From Haliotis rufescens (Eukaryota): a stretch of 64,000 nt of DNA. The DNA lies in contig NW_025964079.1 of assembly GCF_023055435.1 (NCBI RefSeq), positions 434,001-498,000 of the forward strand, written 5' to 3'. Positions 18,001-28,100 of the stretch are shown piece by piece. Made by a program: the position numbers. How positions within the stretch are numbered: the first letter of the stretch is position 1; each line of letters opens with the position of its first letter.

Positions 18001-21000
18001 CCTAGTGTCACCTTAACGCATGTGTCTAACACCACACATAAAACTATCATAAAATTGTGAGTTATTGATAATTATATGCTATTTGCACATGGGCATTTTA
18101 GCAATTTTCAATGCTGAATGGTCAGTTAAAAGGGAGATGACGCCAAATTTGTCCATTCTGGAGAACAATACGATACGATTTTATTCATTATTCATGTCTC
18201 TTAAAAGCATTTCTTCATCTGAACACTGTTTCTGATATGTAACCATGACGTTTGATTCGTCCTTCCTCATTTATTCTCATAAAACGTATTGCATAAACCA
18301 AAGAACGGGGCGTACAGTTTTGAGTTTCGGGTCGCGAAAAACTAGTATCATCACTGATTTGCAGTGGTCCATTCATATAGCTTTCACTGCTGTTTTGCCT
18401 TTTGTGCCAAAAGAAATCTGTTTTGACGGAAACTCGAGACTGGTATTCTCTGGTGATGACGTGTTGTATTTCAGATGGCACATCATAATAGCACATACTC
18501 AAGTCATAAAAAAACAAAGACCTTGTCATTGATTCCTACGCACAATTCACAATGAATATTTTTCTCAGAGAATTACTATAACCTATTCTACTAAATACGA
18601 CATATACAATTGATGGTTCGTAAGAAACATTTTGTCATTAAAACACCGCTATGGACACCAACAGTACTGGGATCGCTATCAACAAAGGTATACACAACAC
18701 CCAGAAGAAAAACAGATCAAGGGCCTTGCTCACTCGATTCCACGTCATTACTTTAGTATGTTCCTTAGCCTCGGAATCATCTGATTGTTCTGTGTCCTCA
18801 GAGATATGGTTAGGATGCGACTTCTTTTGTCGACCACAGCTTTTAACATCTTCAACCCAGACGGTGATTCTTTGGAATGATTTAGGAACGGGTCGTGAAT
18901 TACTGCGTGCTGAGATCCTGACACTGAATATGCTGAGGATGACAAATAACGCAGACAATGATAGCGTGATTCCAAGGAAAATGATAAAGGTGGACACACC
19001 CTCGGAACTTTGTGGTACCATGTTTGTTAGAAATCCCATGTAGACTCCATAGGAAAGAGGAATTGTGATGGCAAATGATACTTTTTCTCCTGAATCTGCT
19101 GGAATGAGGAACACAAATGTTCCTAGAAGAGAGAGAATCATGACGGGAAGGATAAAGTTAAAGACAAAATTGGTTGGGAGTCTTTCTAGAATGAGTGTAA
19201 TTTTCACTGTTGACATTGTTTTGTTGTCAGAATGTTTTTTCAACGAAACGATAGTGGCTGACGTCAAACTCCACTGACCTCGTATATTGGAACTGGACAC
19301 TCCAGCACGAGATTGCCCTGGTTTCAGGTGAACTTCTGTCACTGAGTGTGACCACACAACCAGGTCCATAGAACACTTCAGGCTATCAAATGGGTACAAC
19401 TCAACGTCAACATTACATGGCAGGTAGAATAAATCCCCAGGCATCCACTGTATATGTCCATTTGAAAATAGTTTCAGAGACACGAAATCTCCTCCAAGGC
19501 GGTCGAGTTGTTGGAAGGAATTGGACACAACAAGATCAGGTATCCAGATGTAGCTATCTGGGGGTCTGATAAATTCAACTCCGTCATACATCTCAGAATT
19601 CCAGGTGAGAAACTGATCAGACCACGTCACAACAAACCACCCTGTGCATATGAGCTGTTGTTGAGACTCAATGTATCGGCTCACTGTGTGTAGATGAAAA
19701 TCAAATTCAACCGTAATAGTTTCGGATTTGTTGTAGACGGGCCTCTCGTATGGGTTGTTGTTCCAGATGATGTCATTGTAGAGGCGGAATTCACCAGTGG
19801 CTTTTCTGAGTTGTGTCTCAACGGACACAAAACCACAGGCAAGAATATACAAAATTGGCGACATCATGGTCGTATAGCATCAGCCCTTATCTTCTTCCTC
19901 TGCGATGACAGCTTAATGCTCAGCACACTTGGCTGCCTGTTCTCAATTCTGAGACCAGCCGATGAAACACACTGACTTTGGTCAAAAGCACTTCTTGTGT
20001 CTTACCTGAAATTAATATGAAAAATAATTAAGTAATTCTTTCTGAATATATGCAAACAAATCTGGTTTTGTTGTGTGAGAGTGCTTATCAATTCTGAAAT
20101 TTGATAACATGCTGACCGTGTTGGGGCACAAATAATATATTTTGTTGTCTTTTGACTTGATCTGTTTGTTGTTTACCTCCGCGCTCAGCAATATTCAAGC
20201 TCTATGACATCAATCTCTGGATAATCGAGTCTGAACCAGACAATCAAGTGATTGACATCATACGCATCGATCTTAATAATTGGTATCTGATGAAATGCAT
20301 CAACCAATTTAGCGAGCTGGAAAACCCGATCCCGGATCTTCACAGCGGAACTTTTTGTGTGCAATGAGTCATTGTAAGATTGATCAGTTAGTCCGGTTTT
20401 CAAACTGAATCTGTGTTTTGCATATGGCATATTGAATTGAATTTATAGTAATAGTGTGAATGGTAGCTGATATTTTGAACCTTTCCGTGTACAAAATATG
20501 TACATTTAAATGGGTACTATGTATATATATTTAGTATCTTAAAAGCCACATGCAGATGGCCAAAGAATTGTTTGCAAGTTTCATTCCGCTGCTGACAATA
20601 CATGGTGAGGTGAGGTGAAGGTTATGCGTCATACGAAAAGACGTTAAAAGATAGTACTTCTTTTTACACTTACACACTTACGCCGCGACGTGCATGTGTG
20701 TGTGTGCGTGTGTGTGTGAGTGCATGCGTGCGTGTTTGTCGACGGTCCATACGAATGCCGATTGTATAGTTCTAGTCCACACAGATAGCACGCCACAATG
20801 TATCATTGATACCCCACTCAGACACAGTACACTGAATGTCAGCCGACCAGGCAGGGTAAAAATAAGCACTATCTTTTAACGTCGTTTCGCATGATGTAGG
20901 TGGGCGTCGAACTACCGACCTTTTGTTCTTCGGGTAGACTCTCTTTCCACCAGACCACGGATGTAGTCTGTATCTAAATGGCTTAATGAATGTTGAATGA

Positions 21001-25150: not shown

Positions 25151-28100
25151 AACGCAGTTTAACGTTTATCCCCTACTCGGACACAGTGCACTGAGCCGGC
25201 TAATCCTTGTATTATCCTCCTGATGCCGAGCGTCAGCCCATCGAAGAAAAACGGACGTGTTTTTTACTGTGATAGTCACGTAATATACAAATGTGTTCCT
25301 ATTACAAACAAGTCTACTAACAAGTCTTTCATTGGGGAGTAACATTTAATAAGAATGCTTTTTACTTATACATGTATACTATTTATGTTTACTGAAAAGG
25401 AAATTATAAAAGAAATAATTTATTATGCATATTTGTATGTATATCTTGAGATGAGGTGAGGTGAAGCCGGTTCAAGATAACTTCACTTATATAGTGGTCT
25501 GCGTGTCTGCTTGTACTAGTCGGGATGTATGCCAGTTTCATAGTGGACTTTGTCACTGTCAGCCATTTGAAAAGACACCCTTCAAGCTGTAAAAAAGCTT
25601 TATAGATTGTGTAAACATCATTACCTCTTTACTTTTTGCACTTTGAAAATCAAGGATCGTGTTCAGAATCTGCTAACGATACCCGATGTCTCAAATGACA
25701 GCAAATCTAAGTCTCTCGTGGGCCAGTGACGTCATTATACGCGGGACCAACGCCTGTCAAGGGTAGCTTAATGATTCAGGCGTTTACTCGTCACGTCGTG
25801 GTTTTATTTTCTGCATCGGCACAATCTCTGGAAAACATTCCTGGGAGCCTGAGAAGATTTGTTTGCTCCTTCAGATACTGGTTTGGCTGCAAAACACATG
25901 AGTTCGACTTATTTTGTTTAATTAATCGATAATCATAAATTGCAACATCTTTATTCACATGAAAGAATCACATTAAAAGCAACTCATATTGTCATAGACT
26001 CCTCTAATTACTTCTATAAATATATGTCCATTGCACGATTCTGACTTCATCATTTGTGAATCGCTATCAAATAGATGACATCAGGTGATCGCGAAAATGT
26101 GACCATATCCTGTCCCACCAGTTGCTCACGTCACAAACACGCGTAAAGGCAAGTCAAGTGTTCACCTGAATAAACACAGAAACTTCTAGTTCATGTTTAA
26201 ATAGGGAATTGCTTCAGACATCATTGTGGTCACTAATGGGTAAAATTTGAAAAGATCCACGTCATATATAACACTGTTTGACACTCTCCTTACGAGAGAA
26301 TACATTCAGAAGCAAAGACATATATACTACTCGAACTGATCTATACGAGAAACAACATGTAATAGCTTTAAACACACGCCATCAATGATTCATTAACTAG
26401 AAGCCCAAGTTCAAGCCGATGTATATCAGTGTTATTGGAATTCCCACAAGTGAAGGGATACACAACAACCAGAAGAAAAACAAATCCAGTGCTTTGCTCA
26501 CTCGTTTCCATGTGACGGGCTGAGTAGTCTTCGCCTGAAGTTCTTGTAACTGTCCAGATTCCTCAATTGCAGGTTTGTCACGGTTTCCAAACCGGCCAAA
26601 TGCATCGACCTTTTCGACCCAAATTGTGAATCTTTGTAATGTTTTACGAATGGGTTTCGATTCACTCTGTCCACAGAACCGGACACTGAAGATGCTGACG
26701 ATGACAAATACTGCAGACATTGTTAGTGTGAGTCCAAGGATGATGATGAAGGGCGATATACCCTGGGAGCTCTGGGGTATCATGTCTGTGAGAAAGCCCA
26801 TGTAGACCCCATATGACAGAGGAATCGTTATGGCAAAGGATATTTTTTCTCCTGAATCTGCAGGAATGAGAAACACAAATGTCCCCAGGACGGACAGGAT
26901 CAACACAGGGAGGATGAAGTTGAAGACAAAATGCACAGGGCGTCTGTCCAGTGTAAGCGTAATAAGCACATGTGATATTGGCTTGTTGTCAAAGGTCTTT
27001 TCCTTGGCTGTGATTGATGTTGGTTTTAGCCTCCACTGACCTCCTATGTTTGAACTAGATGTTCCAGCTACTGACTGACGGACTTTCAGGTCAACTTCTG
27101 ACGTCGAATATGACCAGACGACAATCTCCATAGAACACTTCAGGCTATCAAATGGATACATTAGAACGTCCGTTTCACAATGCAGGTAGAATAAGTCTCC
27201 TGTCATCCACTGCACGTGTCCATAAGAGGATACTTTCAAAGGCACGAAATCTCCTCCAATGTGGTTTAGTTGTTGGAAGGAATTGGACACAACAAGATCA
27301 GGTTTCCACACGTAGCTATCTGGGGGTCTGATAAACTCAACTCCGTCATACATCTCAGAATTCCAGGTGAGAAACTGATCAGACCACGACACATCAAACC
27401 ACCCTGTGCATAGGAGCTGTTGTTGAGACTCAGTGTATCGGCTCACTGTGTGTAGATGAAAGTCAAATTCAACTGTTATAGTTTCGGATTTGTTGTAGAC
27501 GGGCCTCTCGTATGGGTTGTTGTTCCAGATGATGTCATTGTAGAGGCGGAATTCACCAGTGGAGTGTCTGGCTGACTCGATAGACACAACACCAATCACC
27601 AAATTACAGATTGTGAAGAGTAGCATGATTGCACAGATGGTAATGTAGAACTTCGCAGTGTAGAGTTTTGATGCCGTGGAGCTGCAATAATGAAAAGATA
27701 CACGTGTCTCAGAGGTAAAATAAGTGGGAATGTAAAATAGTCAAATTGATATTGTTAGATTGTTTGATATCTAACGCCGCATTCAGGAATATATATAGCT
27801 CGAGGCTGGACCCGCGTCAGCGAGCAGGAACACCCAATCCATTTAGTGTCTCTTGCAACAAACATCGGTTAGAATAAAGGGATGCTTTAATTAACGCTAT
27901 ACTAAATCCACAACGTACAATGCATTCCATTCATTGCTTTCCAACGAAAACACGAGCTTGTTTAATCGATGGCATTTGCATTTTCTTTCATAGGTAAATG
28001 CAGGGAAATGAGAGCGACAAAACCCTTTTCATGTCCATTACAAATCTGCTCAAATGAGAGTTGATTGTACGATTCCCACTATCCTGAGCATGTGTTTAGT

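What the first reader, a model, noticed from the sequence alone, without database searches (positions are those of the whole stretch)
19507..27561. Sharp ~290-bp gene-conversion tract shared between otherwise divergent A and B genes
A1 19507-19799 and B1 27269-27561 (TGEFRL...NSFQQL) differ at only about 11 positions by hand count, synonymous sites included. The signal peptides, loops E/B/F/C, the M3-M4 loop and the flanks are strongly diverged. The tract starts right after the signal peptide and ends just after loop A. The result is a constant N-terminal half of the ligand-binding domain joined to type-specific remainders. Protein constraint alone does not explain the silent-site identity.
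Basis: partly seen in the sequence, partly recalled or inferred. Interest (0 to 1): 0.72.

Follow-up and report, generated by a model that had tools for sequence, protein, structure and literature searches.

The report
Gene-conversion patch in abalone receptor genes
Two alternating types of acetylcholine-receptor-like genes in an abalone gene cluster share one nearly identical 295-base stretch, most likely because one type was copied over the other there; this is a clean example of the well-known process of gene conversion.

Summary
The window comes from Haliotis rufescens. It holds a minus-strand array of intronless 409-codon Cys-loop receptor genes in the order A1 B1 A2 B2 A3 B3 A4 B4.

- **Tract:** A1 19507-19799 and B1 27269-27561 differ at 11 of 293 bases. 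In the codon alignment the tract is columns 68-362.
- **Type-fixed differences:** 31 columns before the tract, 2 inside it and 252 after it.
- **Synonymous divergence:** A-B dS is 0.072 inside the tract and 1.03 after it.
- **Not nucleotide constraint:** A-A dS is not lowered in the tract (0.082 against 0.048). The RNA fold z-score is 0.02, and no alternative frame stays open.
- **Trees:** A and B are separate clades outside the tract and intermixed inside it. Inside it they sit apart from H. rubra and H. asinina.
- **Later exchange:** one H. cracherodii B gene carries a tract 1 residue from that species' A gene.

Best reading: non-allelic gene conversion confined to an island, dating from about the time the A-B unit was amplified. 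Later small exchanges are likely but not proven (AU p 0.059). This is a new member of a known kind, of moderate interest.

The parts
18638..19867 (-). Gene A1, intact single-exon ORF of 409 codons; Cys-loop receptor (nAChR-like) subunit, type A
   Evidence: ORF list; Pfam Neur_chan_LBD 6.6e-38 and Neur_chan_memb 5.9e-12; identical to the database protein P0015
19506..19800 (-). Shared tract in A1 (codon-alignment columns 68-362; residues 24-121)
26397..27626 (-). Gene B1, 409 codons, type B; about 69% protein identity to A1
27268..27562 (-). Shared tract in B1
30607..31836 (-). Gene A2, 409 codons
31475..31769 (-). Shared tract in A2 (coordinates computed from the column rule; BLAST hit 31476-31768)
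37976..39205 (-). Gene B2, 409 codons
38847..39141 (-). Shared tract in B2 (BLAST hit 38848-39139)
42556..43785 (-). Gene A3, 409 codons; the most divergent A copy in the window
43424..43718 (-). Shared tract in A3 (BLAST hit 43425-43717)
48772..50001 (-). Gene B3, 409 codons
49643..49937 (-). Shared tract in B3 (BLAST hit 49644-49936; identical to B1 there)
53000..54229 (-). Gene A4, 409 codons
53868..54162 (-). Shared tract in A4 (BLAST hit 53869-54161)
63268..64000 (-). Gene B4, 3' part only (243 codons); its tract lies beyond the window end. The full protein is probably P0020, which matches this ORF closely by eye but was not compared by a call
24072..24202 (+). Decayed, inverted relic of the first ~144 bases of the tract (76% identity, with an in-frame stop), between A1 and B1
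46571..46702 (+). Second copy of the same relic, between A3 and B3 (75-76% identity to the tract)

Best explanation
The tract is the product of non-allelic (interlocus) gene conversion between two old tandem paralogues. A and B are sister genes of a small, isolated abalone subfamily of intronless nAChR-like Cys-loop receptor genes. They had diverged to about dS 1 when a stretch of about 295 bp was copied non-reciprocally from one type onto the other. That stretch encodes the N-terminal helix, the first beta strands and loops D and A. Alternatively, the stretch was never allowed to diverge because it was repeatedly homogenised. The last homogenisation dates to about the time the ~11-12 kb A-B unit was amplified into the present ABABABAB array. 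It happened before H. rufescens and H. cracherodii split. It probably also happened after their lineage left that of H. rubra and H. asinina. Shown here: the tract, its two sharp boundaries, the loss of synonymous divergence, the tree discordance, and the absence of nucleotide-level constraint. Inferred: (a) the direction was mainly A to B, because the tract and the A remainder both resemble the H. rubra and H. asinina proteins while the B remainder does not; (b) smaller exchanges went on later inside the island; (c) the boundaries stay fixed because about 30% divergence on either side leaves too little identity for heteroduplex extension, and possibly because selection keeps the type-specific loops E, B, F and C and the signal peptide apart.
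For: - Internal patch with two boundaries: 31, 2 and 252 type-fixed columns before, inside and after the tract.
- A-B dS is 0.072 in the tract. Elsewhere it is 0.74 (leader), 0.98 (rest of the ligand-binding domain), 0.86 (M1-M3) and 1.30 (M3-M4 loop).
- Fisher tests on same-amino-acid codons give p 1.5e-13 to 9.5e-11 for 12 of 12 pairs. Maximum chi-square is 87-96 against at most 20.2 in shuffles, on 4 of 12 pairs.
- No constraint signature: A-A dS in the tract is 0.082, not lower than 0.048 in the rest. RNA fold z-score is 0.02. No other frame is open through the tract.
- Across 38 distant relatives the tract (30.4% identity to A1) is less conserved than M1-M3 (37.9%), where A-B dS is still 0.86.
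- Trees: in the remainder A is 99/98 and B 100/100. In the tract H. rufescens plus H. cracherodii A and B form one clade (97/96) against H. rubra and H. asinina, with the types intermixed. The DNA A|B branch is 0.58 against about 0.01.
- Tract divergence between types (8-13 of 293 bases) lies within the range of non-coding divergence between array units (2.5-12%).
- Later exchange: the H. cracherodii B protein P0021 has a tract 1 residue from the conspecific A protein P0011, but 4-5 residues from the other B proteins. It shares I109 and S116 with P0011. S116 is seen only in three H. cracherodii proteins (P0011, P0014, P0021). Its remainder is 108 residues from P0011 and 10-13 from the other B proteins.
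- The H. rufescens B4 protein (P0020) has a tract 5 residues from the A-type P0001 and 7-8 from the other B proteins.
- 15 of 36 site pairs in the tract fail the four-gamete test.
- A is B's nearest relative: outside the Haliotis group the next proteins are at most 37% identical. So the B remainder was not imported from another family.
Against: - Type monophyly inside the tract is not formally rejected on the 98 protein columns (AU p 0.059 for B and 0.065 for A). Within the window the DNA tract tree still recovers A|B weakly (82/80), and 2 fixed differences remain. So a single event before array amplification could account for nearly everything, and ongoing conversion is not demonstrated.
- The later exchanges rest on few residues (2 derived states for P0021), so parallel change is not excluded.
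- The apparent B-like alleles of A3 (columns 294-326) are the ancestral state, also seen in H. rubra and H. asinina. They are not a conversion.
- A conversion starting between sequences already about 30% diverged is mechanistically difficult. This favours continuous homogenisation but remains an inference.
- No B-type protein was found outside H. rufescens and H. cracherodii, so the age of the A/B split relative to speciation is not fixed.
- No nucleotide data from other species could be examined.
- GC3 is only slightly higher in the tract (0.52 against 0.43-0.50), a weak sign at best of biased conversion.
Confidence: 0.85

Rival explanations
1. One-off chimeric origin by another route. The internal patch was introduced once, for example by template switching of a reverse transcriptase between two mRNAs when these intronless retrogene-like genes were formed, or by two unequal crossovers. 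The chimera was then simply inherited by every copy as the A-B unit was amplified. No homologous conversion is involved.
For: The genes are intronless, and such molluscan nAChR genes are thought to derive from retroposition (PMC6896357, passages). LINE-like reverse-transcriptase and endonuclease fragments lie inside the array. All copies have the same boundaries. The tract's A-B dS (0.072) is no younger than A-A dS (0.048-0.082), so a single pre-amplification event fits the window data. AU tests do not reject type monophyly in the tract.
Against: It needs two switches at once, since both ends of the patch are flanked by diverged homologous sequence. A and B lie in tandem in one orientation, as expected of tandem duplication and not of independent retrocopies. 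The P0021 and P0020 tract haplotypes match A-type haplotypes at diagnostic residues, and there are four-gamete failures. Both need later exchange inside the same island.
Confidence: 0.08
2. Constraint at the nucleotide level. The tract holds a functional element (an RNA structure, a regulatory or splicing signal, or an overlapping reading frame) that keeps silent sites identical in A and B without any copying.
For: The tract is more conserved than the rest of the gene at protein level between abalone species: 10-18 of 98 residues differ, against 55-79 of about 291 for A-type proteins.
Against: Silent sites vary freely among A copies in the tract (A-A dS 0.082 against 0.048 elsewhere). The RNA fold is no more stable than shuffles (z 0.02; 95 of 200 shuffles fold at least as well). 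Every other frame through the tract has stops. Proteins of other species differ at 10-18% of tract residues, while A and B within H. rufescens and H. cracherodii differ at 1-9%. In the wider family the tract is not the most conserved region.
Confidence: 0.03
3. Assembly artefact. Repeats of the array were collapsed or mis-joined, so the shared stretch is a consensus of reads from both gene types.
For: The array is repetitive (units 88-97% identical), and there is an assembly gap at 61893-62034.
Against: Seven copies carry the tract, and six of the seven tract sequences are distinct, with 20 columns polymorphic among the A copies. All seven reading frames are intact. Annotated proteins of a second species, H. 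cracherodii, show the same pattern of a B-type remainder with the shared tract.
Confidence: 0.02

Closest known systems
Non-allelic (interlocus) gene conversion between tandem paralogues with islands of identity or divergence. Examples: surveys in Caenorhabditis and Drosophila paralogues and the GOT1 paralogues of the copepod Tigriopus (PMC3966223, PMC2588116, PMC3728101; search listing and start of abstract only). Recalled classic cases, not checked here: human fetal gamma-globin genes, red/green opsin genes, RHD/RHCE.
   Same: A short internal stretch of near identity, silent sites included, lies between paralogues that are otherwise old. The genes are in tandem and in the same orientation. 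Tree discordance separates the converted part from the rest. The effect depends on sequence identity.
   Different: Here the genes alternate in an ABAB array made by amplifying a two-gene unit. The island has the same two boundaries in all 7 window copies and in the proteins of a second species. The contrast in dS is about 14-fold (0.072 against 1.03).
Expanded intronless, tandemly arrayed nAChR genes of molluscs (Jiao et al. 2019, PMC6896357; abstract and passages read)
   Same: Intronless genes of about 400 codons with Neur_chan_LBD and Neur_chan_memb domains, in a tandem array, lineage-specific, annotated as alpha-7-like.
   Different: That paper studied bivalves and other species. The words Haliotis, conversion and recombination occur 0 times in its main text (supplements closed). 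It reads clustering of paralogues by species as post-speciation expansion. The present case shows that conversion can produce such clustering for part of a gene.
Cephalopod chemotactile receptors (CRs): nAChR-derived, intronless, tandemly clustered chemoreceptors (review PMC11526382, passages read)
   Same: An nAChR-like fold (TM-score 0.80 to nAChR chains), intronless genes in a tandem cluster, and loss of canonical acetylcholine-binding residues. By alignment to alpha-7, the loop-A Tyr position is Ser115, the loop-C Cys-Cys pair is absent, and the loop-C Tyr positions are Ser and Met. The roles and numbering of the alpha-7 residues are recalled.
   Different: No sequence relationship to CRs was tested. 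Outside Haliotis the nearest proteins are at most 37% identical and unnamed. No ligand, expression or function data exist for the abalone genes. Conversion in CR clusters was not looked for.

Membership tests
Pentameric ligand-gated ion channel (Cys-loop receptor), nAChR-like | Extracellular ligand-binding domain followed by the channel transmembrane domain | tested here: met
   Pfam PF02931: 6.6e-38 (A1) and 1.1e-37 (B1). PF02932: 5.9e-12 and 1.8e-10. All are above the curated cut-offs.
Pentameric ligand-gated ion channel (Cys-loop receptor), nAChR-like | Cys-loop: two cysteines 13 residues apart, with the FPFD-like motif | tested here: met
   A1 residues 151-165, Cys-13 residues-Cys containing YPFD. 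C151 and C165 are invariant in the 48-sequence alignment.
Pentameric ligand-gated ion channel (Cys-loop receptor), nAChR-like | Beta-sandwich ectodomain plus four transmembrane helices M1-M4 | tested here: met
   AlphaFold2 model, mean pLDDT 81.8. Helices at 232-254, 261-283, 293-319 and 376-408. Foldseek TM-score 0.80 to muscle, alpha-7 and alpha4beta2 nAChR chains, E about 1e-32.
Alpha-type, acetylcholine-binding nAChR subunit (as the database name 'alpha-7-like' suggests) | Vicinal Cys-Cys in loop C and the aromatic box (loop A Tyr, loop B Trp, two loop C Tyr, loop D Trp) | tested here: not met
   In the HMMER alignment to alpha-7 the Cys-Cys pair falls in a gap of A1. The loop-A Tyr position is Ser115 and the two loop-C Tyr positions are Ser and Met. 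Only the loop-B Trp (W172) and the loop-D Trp (W77) are kept, which is 2 of 5. Which alpha-7 residues form the box is recalled, not taken from a call.
Interlocus gene-conversion tract | A segment of significantly raised identity, bounded on both sides by diverged homologous sequence | tested here: met
   31, 2 and 252 fixed columns. Maximum chi-square 87-96 against at most 20.2 in 200 shuffles, on 4 of 12 pairs.
Interlocus gene-conversion tract | Synonymous divergence reduced along with non-synonymous divergence | tested here: met
   In the tract dS is 0.072 and dN 0.028. After it dS is 1.03 and dN 0.256. Fisher tests on same-amino-acid codons give p<=9.5e-11 in 12 of 12 pairs.
Interlocus gene-conversion tract | Not explained by site-level constraint: variation within each type is not reduced, and there is no embedded element | tested here: met
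   A-A dS is 0.082 in the tract against 0.048 in the rest. Fold z-score 0.02. Stops in all other frames.
Interlocus gene-conversion tract | Different tree for the tract than for the flanking parts | tested here: inconclusive
   B is a clade in 100% of bootstrap trees for the remainder and in 0 of 200 for the tract. The AU test of a forced B clade or A clade in the tract gives p 0.059 and 0.065. The branch-length contrast is clear: 0.58 against about 0.01.
Interlocus gene-conversion tract | Paralogues group by lineage in the tract and by type elsewhere when orthologues are added | tested here: met
   At protein level only. H. rufescens plus H. cracherodii A and B form one clade (97/96) against H. 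rubra and H. asinina in the tract, and type clades in the remainder. Two rows that lack the tract (P0014, P0005) were left out. Nucleotide data of other species were not available.

The most novel reading that the evidence does not exclude
The island may be a maintained design, not a leftover of one accident. A and B would be partner subunits of one heteromeric, non-cholinergic (possibly chemosensory) channel. Their shared N-terminal module (N-terminal helix, beta1-beta2, loops D and A) would be kept identical by recurrent conversion under selection. That module would then co-evolve as one unit in both subunits, while the type-specific loops E, B, F and C, the pore-lining helices and the intracellular loop are protected from conversion and diversify. 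This would be a constant/variable architecture for a receptor gene array. The same island boundaries in 7 window copies and in a second species, and the A-like tract haplotypes in two B genes, are compatible with this reading but do not require it.
Probability: 0.12. Interest if true: 0.6.

Novelty: new member of a known kind. Interest (0 to 1): 0.35.

Why it matters
This is a very clean natural example of partial gene conversion. It has two sharp boundaries, a roughly 14-fold drop in dS, and replication across an eight-gene array and a second species. It lies in a gene family, the massively expanded intronless nAChR-like genes of molluscs, whose history has so far been read from trees as lineage-specific expansion. 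Conversion of this kind makes paralogues look younger and more species-specific than they are over part of their length. Trees, dating and selection tests for these families should therefore be done segment by segment. The case also offers natural chimeras: the same N-terminal half of the ligand-binding domain joined to two different remainders. These could be used to ask which parts of an orphan Cys-loop receptor set ligand choice and subunit assembly.

Tried and rejected
1. A second conversion tract in the M4 region of B2. B2 shares A-like bases at columns 1101, 1105, 1168 and 1184, but A-B identity over columns 1126-1200 is 59 of 75 for B1, B3 and B2 alike. Rejected. My B4 row in that call was shifted by one codon, so its numbers are not usable.

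2. A3 as a recipient of a B-to-A conversion at columns 294-326. The 'B' state (V..K in SYVWKPD) is also the state of H. rubra, H. asinina and the other A subtype, so it is ancestral. Rejected.

3. More similar tracts in physically adjacent A-B pairs. Mismatch counts (A1-B1 11, A2-B1 13, A3-B1 11, A4-B1 8; B1 and B3 are identical) show no neighbour effect.

4. Homogenisation of same-type copies limited to the coding sequence. The coding sequence is 0.91-1.00 identical and the flanks mostly 0.85-0.99. This is as expected from purifying selection alone. No claim is made.

5. An RNA structure or an overlapping frame in the tract. None found.

6. The B remainder imported from another paralogue family. 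Outside the Haliotis group the next relatives are at most 37% identical. A search with the B-specific residues 122-409 found no B type outside the H. rufescens/H. cracherodii cluster.

7. Literature. Searches listed no paper on gene conversion in molluscan or abalone nAChR-like genes. None of the 12 papers listed holds all three terms. Supplements are closed and were not seen.

8. Complex prediction was not used. No binding claim is made, and Cys-loop subunits would pass by likeness to solved structures.

9. Genome contigs (bacteria and archaea only) was not scanned. The nucleotide test across species therefore stayed unchecked.

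
Full report
**What is in the window.** The window contains one run of 142 N (61893-62034), which I left alone. Its proteins match annotated proteins of the red abalone Haliotis rufescens on a 4.59-Mb contig, some of them exactly. It is a mollusc sequence, not human.

On the minus strand there are seven intact ORFs of exactly 409 codons and one ORF cut by the window end:
- A1 18638-19867
- B1 26397-27626
- A2 30607-31836
- B2 37976-39205
- A3 42556-43785
- B3 48772-50001
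- A4 53000-54229
- B4 63268 to the window end

Each is a single exon. A1 and B1 carry Neur_chan_LBD and Neur_chan_memb. An AlphaFold2 model of A1 (mean pLDDT 81.8) superposes on nicotinic receptor chains with TM-score 0.80.

Copies of one type are 95-99% identical in DNA. A and B are about 69-70% identical in protein. The array was made by amplifying an A-B unit of about 10.4-14.5 kb, judged from the gene starts. Units are 88-97% identical in DNA, with a two-unit higher order: the B1-A2 block matches the B3-A4 block at 96.7%, and B2 matches B4 at 97.5%.

In a codon alignment of the seven complete genes (1236 columns), the columns where A and B share no base fall as follows:
- 31 in columns 1-67
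- 2 in columns 68-362
- 252 in columns 363-1236

The tract is therefore columns 68-362, which is A1 19506-19800 and B1 27268-27562. The same stretch is present in all seven copies. A-B homology ends at the edges of the coding sequence, and the flanks do not align.

**Is it more than protein constraint?** Yes, on five counts.
- **Synonymous divergence.** Nei-Gojobori dS between A and B is 0.072 in the tract. It is 0.74 in the leader, 0.98 in the rest of the ligand-binding domain, 0.86 in M1-M3 and 1.30 in the M3-M4 loop.
- **Codon identity.** Among codons that encode the same degenerate amino acid, 80-85 are identical and 2-4 differ in the tract. Elsewhere 101-107 are identical and 71-77 differ. 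Fisher p is 1.5e-13 to 9.5e-11 in 12 of 12 pairs.
- **Breakpoint scan.** A two-breakpoint maximum chi-square scan on 4 of the 12 pairs gives 87-96, against at most 20.2 in 200 column shuffles.
- **Family-wide conservation.** The tract is not the most conserved part of the family. Across 38 distant relatives it is 30.4% identical to A1, while M1-M3 is 37.9%. Yet A-B dS in M1-M3 is still 0.86.
- **Silent sites vary within type A.** A-A dS is 0.082 in the tract against 0.048 in the rest.

The tract RNA folds no better than shuffles (z 0.02). Every other reading frame through the tract has stops. Nucleotide-level constraint is thus not supported.

**Trees and other species.** The protein database holds relatives only in abalones:
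- H. cracherodii has A-type proteins (P0011, P0016, P0014) and B-type proteins (P0017, P0021).
- H. rubra (P0022, P0005) and H. asinina (P0002, P0003) have A-like proteins only.
- H. rufescens has two further copies outside the window: P0001 (A type) and P0020 (probably the full B4).

Outside this group the next proteins are at most 37% identical. A search with the B-specific residues 122-409 found no B type elsewhere.

On 16 proteins (P0014 and P0005 were left out because they lack the tract), the remainder gives clean type clades: A 99/98, and B 100/100 on a stem of 0.68. The tract instead joins all H. rufescens and H. cracherodii A and B proteins in one clade (97/96) against H. rubra and H. 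asinina, with the types intermixed. B forms one clade in 0 of 200 bootstrap trees.

In DNA, the A|B branch is about 0.58 substitutions per site in the remainder and about 0.01 in the tract.

H. rubra and H. asinina differ from the H. rufescens and H. cracherodii tracts at 10-18 of 98 residues. A and B of those two species differ at 1-9. So the tract is not simply frozen across abalones.

The AU test of a forced B clade or A clade in the tract gives p 0.059 and 0.065. That is suggestive but not a formal rejection.

**One event or many?** The tract's A-B dS (0.072) is about the same as dS among A copies (0.048-0.082). It also falls within the non-coding divergence between units (2.5-12%). Tract haplotypes are shared between H. 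rufescens and H. cracherodii orthologues; for example, P0017 is identical to B2 in the tract. The main homogenisation therefore predates that speciation and is about as old as the amplification of the unit. A single event in the ancestral A-B pair would explain most of the pattern.

Three observations point to later exchange inside the same island:
- **P0021 (H. cracherodii, B type).** Its tract is 1 residue from the conspecific A-type P0011 and 4-5 from the other B proteins. It shares I109 and S116 with P0011. S116 is seen only in three H. cracherodii proteins (P0011, P0014, P0021). Its remainder is 108 residues from P0011.
- **P0020 (H. rufescens, B4).** Its tract is nearer to the A-type P0001 (5 residues) than to the other B proteins (7-8).
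- **Four-gamete test.** 15 of 36 informative site pairs in the tract fail it, as do 38 of 120 in the remainder. So copies exchange sequence in general.

These rest on few sites. I regard recurrent conversion as likely but not shown.

**Mechanism.** The patch is internal, with diverged homologous sequence on both sides. That is the signature of non-reciprocal copying (gene conversion) rather than of one unequal crossover.

Conversion needs near-identical sequence. The roughly 30% divergence on either side (283 differences in 898 columns) can by itself hold later events inside the island. Selection for the type-specific parts may add to this. This reasoning draws on general knowledge of homologous recombination and is inference.

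The direction was probably A to B. The tract and the A remainder resemble the H. rubra and H. asinina proteins: the A remainder differs from them at 55-79 of about 291 residues, the B remainder at 106-114. The root of the family is not known, however.

GC3 is slightly higher in the tract (0.52 against 0.43-0.50). This is at most a weak hint of biased conversion.

**What the tract encodes.** The mapping comes from the alignment to alpha-7 structures and from the model. Residues 24-121 cover:
- the N-terminal helix
- the first two long strands (51-66 and 71-83), including the loop-D Trp (W77)
- the following short elements
- the WxPD loop-A motif (108-111)

The 3' boundary lies in the loop before the next strand (131-134). 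This is about half of the ligand-binding domain but not a separate structural domain, which fits a DNA-level event rather than domain shuffling.

The subunits are not canonical acetylcholine binders. The loop-C Cys-Cys pair is missing, and only 2 of the 5 aromatic-box positions are kept. Which alpha-7 residues form the box is recalled.

**Comparison with what is known.** Partial interlocus conversion between tandem paralogues is well documented. I saw listings and the start of abstracts for PMC3966223, PMC2588116 and PMC3728101. The globin, opsin and RH examples are recalled.

Intronless, tandemly arrayed, lineage-specific nAChR genes of molluscs were described by Jiao et al. 2019 (PMC6896357). 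I read passages of that paper.

Cephalopod chemotactile receptors are likewise nAChR-derived, intronless and tandemly clustered (PMC11526382, passages). Relatedness to them was not tested.

My searches listed no report of gene conversion in these genes.

**Verdict.** The finding is a clean new instance of a known process. It is of moderate interest, chiefly as a caution for tree-based histories of expanded receptor families and as a source of natural chimeras.

**Left open.** The synonymous-site comparison across species, the direction of copying and the number of events all need nucleotide data from other abalones, which no tool here could supply.

Noticed in passing
window 24072-24202 (+) and 46571-46702 (+): A decayed, inverted relic of the first ~144 bases of the tract (75-76% identity, with an in-frame stop) lies in the A-B spacer of units 1 and 3. 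The matching spacers of units 2 and 4 lack the segment: 24057-24491 has no counterpart between 35969-36148 or between 61228-61412. It is probably the remnant of an older, oppositely oriented gene copy.
   Followed up: partly
window 56567-59469 (-); fragments at 21010-21642 and 33104-33616 (-): A LINE-like retroelement sits inside the array. One ORF has a reverse-transcriptase domain (PF00078, 1.4e-32) and another an endonuclease/exonuclease/phosphatase domain (PF03372, 4.8e-06). The element is broken into at least three ORFs in unit 4. Shorter homologous fragments lie upstream of A1 and A2.
   Followed up: partly
window 15077-16759: A 79%-identical copy of the region that lies upstream of each B gene (27816-29509, 39391-41077, 50193-51895). 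No receptor ORF or tblastn hit lies beside it. It looks like the decayed end of the array.
   Followed up: no
window 5945-7514 and 10429-11488: Two minisatellites. One has a 77-bp unit in about 18 copies (89% matches). The other has a 54-bp unit in 19.7 copies (83% matches) and lies in the 10001-12000 bin, which has the window's strongest GC skew at 0.267.
   Followed up: no
window 17716-64000: The array has a higher-order, two-unit structure. The B1-A2 block (24987-33413) matches the B3-A4 block (47346-55808) at 96.7%. B2 matches B4 at 97.5%, while B1 matches B2 at only 87.7%. A3 groups with the out-of-window A copy P0001 and H. cracherodii P0016 rather than with A1, A2 and A4. The subtypes therefore predate the H. 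rufescens/H. cracherodii split.
   Followed up: partly
protein P0014 (H. cracherodii, XP_071102298.1), not in the window: This 326-residue A-type gene model lacks residues about 20-101, which is most of the tract. It may be a real deletion or a model that skips a damaged stretch. This could not be checked without the DNA.
   Followed up: no
window genes A1-A4 and B1-B3, loop A and loop C codons: The proteins are annotated 'alpha-7-like' but lack the loop-C Cys-Cys pair and 3 of the 5 aromatic-box residues in the alignment to alpha-7. They are probably not acetylcholine-gated in the canonical way. The ligand is unknown.
   Followed up: partly
window 61893-62034: An assembly gap of 142 N lies just downstream of B4, in the B4-A4 spacer.
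   Followed up: no
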